Origin: Eledone cirrhosa
Taxonomy: Eukaryota
Assembly (NCBI GenBank): GCA_964016885.1
Contig: OZ024744.1
Location: 83,514,001 to 83,578,000 of the forward strand
DNA: 64,000 nt
Direction of reading: 5' to 3'
Under the pieces are notes generated by a model. It was not told where the DNA came from. It searched no databases and saw nothing but the letters and a program-made list of their open reading frames with translations. This document shows positions 2,043-2,240 of the stretch, one piece after another. Positions within the stretch are counted from its first letter, which is position 1. Every line of letters starts with the position of its first letter. A program made the translations under genes and the position numbers.

Positions 2043-2240
2043 ATAGGAAAAAGTATGACCCCGACGGCAGAGCTCAAGCCGTTTCGACGGCTATTTCTGC
2101 GTCCAGAAATAGCCGTAGAAACGGCTTGAGCTCTGCCGTCGGGGTCATAGTTTTTCCTATTTCCCACTCTACTTCCCTAAGTATTGAGTATTCTGGTGCG
2201 TTATGGTCCATCTGGTTCCTTACCACAATTCCTTTGTTAT
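2043..2240 (+). mobile_element. Fold-back minielement family B (half-hammerhead palindrome plus tail)
   Basis: Palindrome 2043-2160 centred about 2101; GAAA-cggc...gccg-TC motif on each arm; tail 2161-2240; (TA)n flanks. Confidence 0.8.

What the first reader, a model, noticed from the sequence alone, without database searches (positions are those of the whole stretch)
2043..2240. Family B: palindrome made of two 3'-half hammerheads folded in the stem II loop
Each arm reads stem II-c-GAAA-cggc[ttgagctct]gccg-TC-ggggtc, a hammerhead 3' half with a GUC cleavage triplet. The 5' CUGANGA half is absent and replaced by the mirror copy. Five complete copies (2043, 9961, 20767, 27245, 28866) fold at the same place, with partial copies at 8839 and 53084. 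Inference: the stem II hairpin is a recurrent self-priming point for cDNA fold-back, or the split ribozyme is completed in trans by the parental RNA.
Basis: partly seen in the sequence, partly recalled or inferred. Interest (0 to 1): 0.8.

Follow-up and report, generated by a model that had tools for sequence, protein, structure and literature searches.

The report
Double-primed Penelope retrotransposon stub palindromes
This 200-base palindrome is one of more than twenty thousand stubs of a Penelope-like retrotransposon, each likely made when two DNA copies, begun at two fixed points of the element's RNA, stopped inside its hammerhead ribozyme (possibly at the RNA's start) and were joined head to head, which offers a direct test of how these elements insert.

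Summary
The palindrome is real and genome-wide: at least 21,936 copies, sitting in (TA)n. It is the extreme 5'-truncated, head-to-head form of a Hydra-like Penelope-like element (PLE). Long parents carry an RT plus C-terminal GIY-YIG ORF and a whole type I hammerhead. The core is not CUGANGA: UUGANAA (U3-A8) in the finding's subfamily, CUGAGAA (C3-A8 mismatch) in sisters. 57 of 57 palindromes have one tailed and one tail-less arm. The longer arm ends at -40/-41 from the cleavage site in 56 of 99. That wall lies inside loop II, on an initiator-like TT-A-GTCC, not at the stem II hairpin. Self-primed fold-back is not supported: the parental loop is never the spacer, junction overlaps are mostly 0-2 nt, and in 13 of 20 long pairs each arm holds sequence the other lacks. 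Best model: two cDNAs from two RT start sites, end-joined; the wall is likely the RNA 5' end (inferred, no RNA data). Inverted pLTRs, tails and PLE hammerheads are known; the scale, the fixed wall and the core series were not found in my searches.

The parts
2043..2240 (+). Whole stub: tail-less inverted arm plus tailed arm of a Hydra-like PLE, inserted in (TA)n
2043..2099 (-). Tail-less (S) arm; begins at the TAT site at the end of extended stem I and reaches 37 nt upstream of the cleavage site
2100..2100 (.). Junction: one base that belongs to neither arm
   Evidence: S37, T40, gap 1
2101..2240 (+). Tailed (T) arm; starts at -40, the G next to the A of the initiator-like TT-A-GTCC in parental loop II
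2107..2117 (+). Hammerhead stem II 3' strand and position 11.1 (A here, C in relatives)
2118..2140 (+). GAAA core, stem III with GAGCTC palindrome in its loop, GUC triplet (predicted cleavage after 2140 in the full parental ribozyme)
2141..2160 (+). Stem I 3' strand and its extension, ending in TAT, the inferred upstream RT start site (S)
2161..2240 (+). 80-nt tail, present at one end only; in partial-tandem parents it runs on into the 5' UTR and ORF; ends at the inferred downstream RT start site (T)
2017..2042 (.). (TA)n-rich target, left
2241..2268 (.). (TA)n target, right
9961..10170 (-). Copy; both arms reach -40, perfect centre
20765..20940 (-). Copy with a deletion in the tailed arm; one arm reaches -41 plus an extra base
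27245..27420 (+). Copy whose tailed arm lacks GAAA and the stem II strand
28864..29059 (-). Copy of a sister subfamily (arms reach -38 and -40)
8839..8966 (+). Older-subfamily copy that turns in stem III
53083..53134 (+). Lone tail-less arm between (TA)n runs

Best explanation
The element is a 5'-truncated, head-to-head insertion of a Hydra-like Penelope-like retrotransposon in (TA)n, likely made by two cDNAs that were primed from the two target strands at two fixed sites of the element RNA 80 nt apart, likely ran off the RNA's 5' end inside hammerhead loop II, and were then end-joined. Shown: parentage, (TA)n target, one tailed plus one tail-less arm, both arms from the same subfamily, a wall at -40/-41, copy-specific junctions. 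Inferred: (1) the GIY-YIG endonuclease cuts both strands of (TA)n; (2) RT starts at site T (tail end) on one strand and site S (end of extended stem I) on the other, as for the two start sites of Poseidon in vitro; (3) transcription starts at the A of TT-A-GTCC in loop II of the upstream pLTR, so the RNA 5' end carries only the 3' half of the hammerhead and cDNAs primed there stop after about 60 (S) and 140 (T) nt; (4) the two 3' ends join with 0-2 nt overlap or short inserts and each arm serves as template for the other's second strand. The few percent of long copies would come from priming at the downstream pLTR. My odds: parentage 0.95, two-cDNA joining 0.8, wall = RNA 5' end 0.55.
For: Parent: ORF motifs RWR, DKT, YRDDGL, CxCX5C, VIY..YIG, CxxC and CxH in natural copies L120, L122-L124, L127 against the Hydra definition in PMC8557442 section 11. 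ORF directly upstream in 8 of 30 long copies of the finding's own subfamily within the 1.5 kb held. pLTR-tail-5'UTR order in 6 distinct loci. Two starts: 57 of 57 palindromes have exactly one tail; (TA)n follows the S end in 55 and the tail in 55 of 57; PMC11167929 reports two internal RT starts that bound the tail and cleavage of both strands. Not self-copy: tail-less arm longer in 13 of 20 long pairs, tailed arm longer in 6, one tie (read by eye); arms over about 2.4 kb are 13 of 44 tail-less against 1 of 52 tailed, p=2e-4. De novo junctions: 15 different in 15 copies and 23 in 24 copies within subfamilies; overlap 0-2 nt in 57 of 99, inserts in 39 of 99; shared private variants 1 against 33 unshared. 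Wall: longer arm ends at -40/-41 in 56 of 99, at -42 to -44 in 15 (compatible with added A's), at -46/-48 in 3, shorter in 25. YYANWYY with A at -41 is the only match shared by the 4 parents tested. The AGT is paired in some subfamilies and unpaired in others, yet stubs of the sister subfamily end at it too (read by eye). An extra G follows -41 arms in 14 of 25 inserted junctions against 11 of 42 elsewhere, p=0.02. 40 of the first 100 long arms are in inverted pairs, and none of 6 short partners of long arms inspected ends at the wall, which fits two template classes. Penelope's start site lies inside its upstream pLTR with an Inr (PMC2377424).
Against: No RNA evidence for a start site or for expression was obtained. 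YYANWYY is degenerate (2-3 matches per 150 nt) and its use in this animal is assumed from fly and human. The extra-G test is post hoc, arms are not independent, and C follows in 9 of 25; the reading of G as a copied cap is recalled, and my one search for it found nothing. All 6 partial-tandem loci have an upstream pLTR that extends past -41, none starts at it; they were mostly picked through the ribozyme 5' half, so they could not show it. 25 of 99 palindromes stop short of the wall. Other hammerhead families in this genome turn at other, more scattered places, one of them 2-10 nt upstream of the core with no initiator-like motif, which suits a structural stop. Two-subfamily chimeras are rare (25) and most are concordant near the centre, so they do not prove two RNA templates and may be later recombinants. 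No RT phylogeny was run.
Confidence: 0.58

Rival explanations
1. Same two-cDNA joining, but the wall is a structural roadblock: the hammerhead refolds behind the RT (stem II re-pairs and strips the cDNA) or a protein bound to it blocks the RT, on RNA that continues upstream.
For: Arms end 1-14 nt after leaving stem II. Re-copied pieces of the arm at the centre show release and re-priming. A second pile-up of long tail-less arms lies at the ORF start, 7 of 44. Other families stop near their own hammerheads.
Against: A wall only two bases wide, kept while the local fold differs between subfamilies; initiator-like motif at the wall; long arms come in pairs rather than with wall-stopped partners.
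Confidence: 0.22
2. Self-primed fold-back (first reader; also proposed for PLE head-to-head repeats in PMC3846280, on an antisense template): one strand folds back and copies itself.
For: Arms match by subfamily in 57 of 57; chimeras are rare and mostly concordant at the centre; some inserts look like snap-back copies; overlaps of 4 nt or more in 4 of 57.
Against: A fold-back arm must be a sub-segment of its template, but in 13 of 20 long pairs each arm has unique sequence. The tail-less arm is longer in 39 of 99 stubs. The parental loop is never the spacer.
Confidence: 0.08
3. Stubs are themselves transcribed from the initiator-like site and mobilised in trans as a short non-autonomous element, the palindrome being rebuilt at each insertion or copied as a unit.
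For: Short arms vastly outnumber long ones: 73,009 arm motifs against 2,038, 666 and 510 hits for 5'-half patterns of different stringency.
Against: Copying as a unit is excluded by copy-specific junctions. The main subfamilies examined have long parents. Rebuilding from single-arm transcripts is not excluded and would use the same two-cDNA mechanism.
Confidence: 0.1
4. A palindromic DNA transposon (MITE-like) unrelated to retrotransposition.
For: About 200 bp, palindromic, inserted at TA.
Against: The arms are the 3' end of RT/GIY-YIG elements, with the same two ends at all lengths from 0.1 to 4 kb; the centre is variable and one end is asymmetric.
Confidence: 0.02

Closest known systems
Hydra clade of C-terminal EN+ Penelope-like elements (Craig et al. 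2021, PMC8557442)
   Same: RWK-like, DKT, CxCX5C, CxxC and CxH motifs; C-terminal GIY-YIG without CCHH; (TA)n target; inverted 5'-truncated copy and one-ended tail
   Different: RWR not RWK; monomer about 3.3 kb against 'generally <3 kb'; hammerhead core non-canonical (U3-A8 or C3-A8) where Hydra was said to have canonical ones; tail 80 nt against 30-40; tens of thousands of minimal stubs
Poseidon of Anolis in vitro (Frangieh et al. 2024, PMC11167929)
   Same: Two RT start sites bounding the tail, both target strands cut, AT-rich target, hammerhead cleavage not needed for insertion
   Different: Other clade; here the starts end in TAT/TTA that match the target; the paper's main text as read (parts 1-2 of 4) does not explain head-to-head joining or a fixed stop
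Penelope of Drosophila virilis (Schostak et al. 2008, PMC2377424)
   Same: Partial tandem with inverted terminal repeats; transcription starts inside the upstream pLTR at an Inr
   Different: Start site mapped there, only inferred here; here it would lie inside the ribozyme
PLE hammerheads, including the U3-A8 variant of Schistosoma Cercyon (Cervera and de la Pena 2014, PMC4209133; Perreault 2011, PMC3088659)
   Same: Type I hammerhead in the pLTR, short helix I, long helix II, U3-A8 covariation, opposite-strand pairs 100-700 bp apart
   Different: Full 5-bp stem III and a 33-nt loop II; subfamilies fixed for a C3-A8 mismatch; most copies hold only the 3' half
Adineta vaga Penelope palindromic junctions (Arkhipova et al. 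2013, PMC3846280)
   Same: Head-to-head inverted pLTRs with palindromic junctions
   Different: Interpreted there as self-priming; the data here argue against it; low copy number there
Non-LTR retrozymes (bioRxiv 10.64898/2026.07.22.740005; part 1 of 5 read)
   Same: Short non-coding hammerhead repeats derived from PLE pLTRs
   Different: Retrozymes are direct tandem repeats with whole ribozymes; these are inverted stubs with half ribozymes

Membership tests
EN+ Penelope-like element (parent) | Single ORF with RT and C-terminal GIY-YIG endonuclease | tested here: met
   Motifs YRDDGL, FLD and VIY..YIG read in natural frames; 1,336 homologues, the best about 42% identical and mostly about 700 aa. 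Pfam gave no hit for the 2 queries and only a weak GIY-YIG hit, E 0.04, in 1 of 5 homologues, so this rests on motifs.
EN+ Penelope-like element (parent) | Partial tandem pLTR, inverted 5'-truncated copy, tail at one end | tested here: met
EN+ Penelope-like element (parent) | RT phylogeny within PLEs | not tested
   No named reference set was at hand; no tree built
Hydra clade | RWK motif and DKT in place of DKG | tested here: met
   RWR (variant) and SDKTG in L122-L124
Hydra clade | CxCX5C linker, no CCHH, CxxC and CxH around the conserved E and N | tested here: met
   CNCTDGSLC, one Cys between VIY and YIG, CNLC, CKH
Hydra clade | Insertion into (TA)n | tested here: met
   55 of 57 at each end
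Hydra clade | Canonical hammerhead in the pLTR | tested here: not met
   U3-A8 or C3-A8 cores; older relatives with CUGAUGA exist. Hence filed as Hydra-like, not as a plain member.
Type I hammerhead ribozyme (parent) | Three-stem junction with core, GAAA and NUH triplet | tested here: met
   L185 folds to this topology as its minimum-energy structure; 1 of 8 regions folded did so cleanly, others partly or not. Stems keep their pairs in most of 47 and 60 copies.
Type I hammerhead ribozyme (parent) | Watson-Crick pair 3-8 | tested here: inconclusive
   Met as U3-A8 in the finding's subfamily (28 of 30) and a sister (about 79 of 100 UUGANAA, counted by eye); not met in C3-A8 subfamilies (99 of 100 listed C3 hits have A8)
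Type I hammerhead ribozyme (parent) | Self-cleavage | not testable with these tools
   Needs an in vitro assay; 0 of 57 palindromes have both arms ending at the cleavage site
Type I hammerhead ribozyme (the stub itself) | 5' core half present | tested here: not met
Non-LTR retrozyme | Direct tandem repeats each with a complete hammerhead | tested here: not met
   Inverted, dispersed, half ribozymes
MITE / palindromic DNA transposon | Fixed internal sequence and symmetric ends independent of an RT element | tested here: not met

The most novel reading that the evidence does not exclude
This PLE starts transcription inside its own hammerhead, so its RNA begins with a 3'-half ribozyme and ends with a whole one. 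Both RT subunits usually prime near that 5' end and run off, and the joined run-off products, retroviral strong-stop-like cDNAs, became tens of thousands of 200-bp palindromes: a genomic record of double priming and of the start site, in a lineage whose ribozyme core moved from C3-G8 to U3-A8 and, in some successful subfamilies, to an unpaired C3-A8.
Probability: 0.42. Interest if true: 0.72.

Novelty: new variant of a known kind. Interest (0 to 1): 0.55.

Why it matters
How PLEs make their inverted ends and one-sided tails is an open question (PMC8557442, PMC3846280). These stubs give tens of thousands of independent junctions with a strict one-tail rule. That links the two RT start sites seen in vitro to the inverted architecture seen in genomes and argues against self-priming. 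It predicts a start site to the base and names natural ribozyme variants (U3-A8, C3-A8) that test whether cleavage matters for spread. If transcribed, each stub forms a near-perfect 57-bp hairpin and would be a likely substrate for RNA editing or silencing (by analogy with a palindromic frog repeat, PMC5625713; not tested here).

Tried and rejected
Rfam scan: only repeat-driven miRNA-type rows among the 150 of 237 printed. The repeat finder was swamped by microsatellites. Canonical CTGANGA patterns returned mostly chance or mutant hits (46 and 109) and first suggested CUGAGGA parents; unbiased patterns overturned this. Pfam and PDB gave nothing useful for the ORF. Cleaved 3' product as main template: rejected, arms rarely end at the cleavage site. 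Unit amplification of a palindromic master: rejected. Concerted evolution of arms: not seen. Chimeric palindromes as proof of two RNA templates: ambiguous. Full-length copies beginning at -41: not found in 6 partial tandems, but the sample was biased. Rate data for 3-8 pair mutants: three papers were not held, so low activity of C3-A8 is recalled; PMC11167929 shows only that G8C and C3G abolish cleavage. Earlier scan notes: nothing. Not-in-print claims rest only; subscription journals, Repbase and paper supplements were not seen and may describe this family.

Full report
1. Observation. Window 2043-2240 is a 118-bp inverted repeat plus an 80-bp tail between (TA)n runs. The named copies exist; four of five turn at the same place, while 27245 has a shortened tailed arm. 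The genome is 3.0 Gb and unnamed. All 40 scored places matched near full length at 94-100% identity, out of 3,819 candidates. Exact counts: 73,009 arm motifs, control 0; 13,761 palindromes with a centre of at most 30 nt, control 0; 21,936 with a gap of up to 150 nt, control 121. These are lower bounds.

2. Parent. Patterns with canonical CTGANGA gave few hits but led to long copies whose upstream sequence encodes a GIY-YIG-like domain. Twenty inverted pairs, taken from the first 100 of 2,038 hits, contain ORF pieces of up to 550 aa with RWR, DKT, YRDDGL, CxCX5C, VIY..YIG, CxxC and CxH. This matches the Hydra clade of PLEs except RWR for RWK (PMC8557442, section 11 and passages). Pfam and PDB did not name the protein; 1,336 unnamed homologues exist. 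The finding's own subfamily has 666 long hits; 8 of 30 fetched have the ORF directly upstream within 1.5 kb. In 6 distinct loci the order pLTR, tail, 5' UTR is seen, in L119 and L201 continuing into the ORF start. Both ends of the stub are therefore internal sites of the element RNA.

3. Ribozyme. A natural parent (L185) folds into a type I hammerhead; of 8 regions folded it was the only clean case. Stems I, II and III keep their pairs in most copies. The core differs by subfamily. The finding's subfamily has U3 and A8 in 28 of 30 and full UUGANAA in 23 of 30. A sister has UUGANAA in about 79 of the first 100 of 510 hits (by eye). Among hits that require C3, 99 of the first 100 have A8. Older relatives have CUGAUGA. 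N7 varies (C, A, U, G) while U3-A8 is kept. U3-A8 is a known natural, active covariation (PMC3088659 passage; PMC4209133 parts 1-2 of 4). C3-A8 breaks the pair; its low activity is recalled, since the rate papers were not held. These subfamilies spread anyway, in line with cleavage being dispensable for Poseidon insertion in vitro (PMC11167929 parts 1-2 of 4).

4. Anatomy of stubs. Sample: the first 50 palindromes listed plus 7 neighbours, all on contig C1. All 57 have exactly one tail, and both arms agree at the subfamily site in 57 of 57 (three alleles, 30/17/10). (TA)n follows each end in 55 of 57. The longer arm ends 35-48 nt upstream of the cleavage site in 49 of 57; stem II's 5' strand (-68 to -76) is never reached although the pattern allowed it; a few extents are under-measured because of indels. 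A larger set of 99, with both arms at least about 31 nt and the targeted centres of biased searches dropped: longer arm at -40/-41 in 56, at -42 to -44 in 15, at -46/-48 in 3, shorter in 25 (4 of these are other subfamilies the template did not fit). Tail-less arm longer in 39, tailed in 34, equal in 26. Overlap 0-2 nt in 57, 4 nt in 3, inserts in 39. Junctions are nearly all different within a subfamily (15 of 15; 23 of 24). Arms of one copy are hardly closer than arms of different copies of the same subfamily (1.02 against 1.11 differences in 43 nt; 1 shared against 33 unshared private variants).

5. Long copies have the same two ends. In 20 pairs the tail-less arm is longer in 13, the tailed arm in 6, with one tie. 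In the 13, one arm has the tail and the other has up to about 3 kb more upstream sequence, so neither can be a copy of the other. Arms over about 2.4 kb: 13 of 44 tail-less, 1 of 52 tailed (p=2e-4; the chaining script breaks on divergent UTRs and missed one arm of L119). Seven tail-less arms end within about 120 nt of the ORF start.

6. Mechanism. Shown: two fixed ends, one of each per insertion, de novo junctions, a sharp wall. Inferred: both target strands prime cDNAs at S and T (as in PMC11167929), and the cDNAs are end-joined head to head. For the wall I favour the RNA 5' end. The A at -41 is the +1 base of a YYANWYY/TCAGTY-like initiator (consensus from PMC1779564 passages) and the only such match common to 4 parents. 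Its pairing context differs between subfamilies while the stop stays. An extra G follows it in 14 of 25 inserted junctions against 11 of 42 elsewhere (p=0.02, post hoc). Long arms come in pairs (40 of 100 hits), and 0 of 6 short partners inspected stop at the wall. Penelope starts inside its pLTR at an Inr (PMC2377424 passages). Against: no RNA data were obtained; the motif is degenerate; 6 of 6 partial tandems extend past -41 (biased sample); other hammerhead families here turn elsewhere. A structural roadblock is the main rival. Cross-subfamily chimeras number 25 and are mostly concordant near the centre; later recombination explains them as well as two templates do.

7. Self-priming matches a published proposal (PMC3846280, discussion read) but fails on points 4 and 5. 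Trans completion of a stub transcript is blocked by its -115 kcal/mol hairpin; a single-arm RNA could pair stems II and III with a parental 5' half.

8. Novelty. Known: inverted truncated copies and one-ended tails, Hydra elements, PLE hammerheads, U3-A8. Not found in my searches: a fixed stop inside the ribozyme, the strict one-tail rule at this scale, or expanded C3-A8 subfamilies. Repbase, subscription papers and supplements were not seen. Other papers seen: bioRxiv 10.64898/2026.07.22.740005 (part 1 of 5); PMC3884650, PMC6257768, PMC5625713 and PMC6962438 (passages). Verdict: new variant of a known kind, interest 0.55.

Noticed in passing
window 1684-2016, 3560-3900, 8440-8720, 27650-27990, 33480-33830: Head-to-head palindromes of other families, most with a canonical CUGANGA hammerhead in each arm; centres are more scattered than in family B.
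   Followed up: partly
L036, L079, L143, L343, L351: A further hammerhead family whose palindromes turn only a few bases upstream of CTGATGA.
   Followed up: no
L121-L124, L311, L313, L317: Near-full-length tail-less arms pile up within about 120 nt of the ORF start, a possible second block where protein binds the RNA.
   Followed up: partly
G000 subfamilies: Four combinations at hammerhead positions 3 and 8 occur: U-A, C-A (mismatch, abundant), and minor U-G and C-G.
   Followed up: partly
L092 3003-3122 and L332 4724-4901: Arms that run on past the tail into the 5' UTR, suggesting rarer start sites further downstream.
   Followed up: no
window 41429-41655, 28356-28558, 6116-6307, 46807-46969, 39120-39310, 52090-52285, 17485-17677, 29376-29534: Another abundant repeat of about 200 bp, also in many fetched loci; not identified.
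   Followed up: no
window 56104 (+, 248 aa) and 59902 (+, 343 aa): Open frames resembling reverse-transcriptase fragments of a non-LTR element and of another PLE (by motif, recalled).
   Followed up: no
L118 reverse strand, about 1014-2720: A 570-aa open stretch of another PLE with RT and C-terminal GIY-YIG motifs next to the Hydra-like copy.
   Followed up: no
L216, L219, L345: Recurrent deletion of about 20 nt between the two CCGTC repeats of an arm, suggesting template slippage.
   Followed up: no
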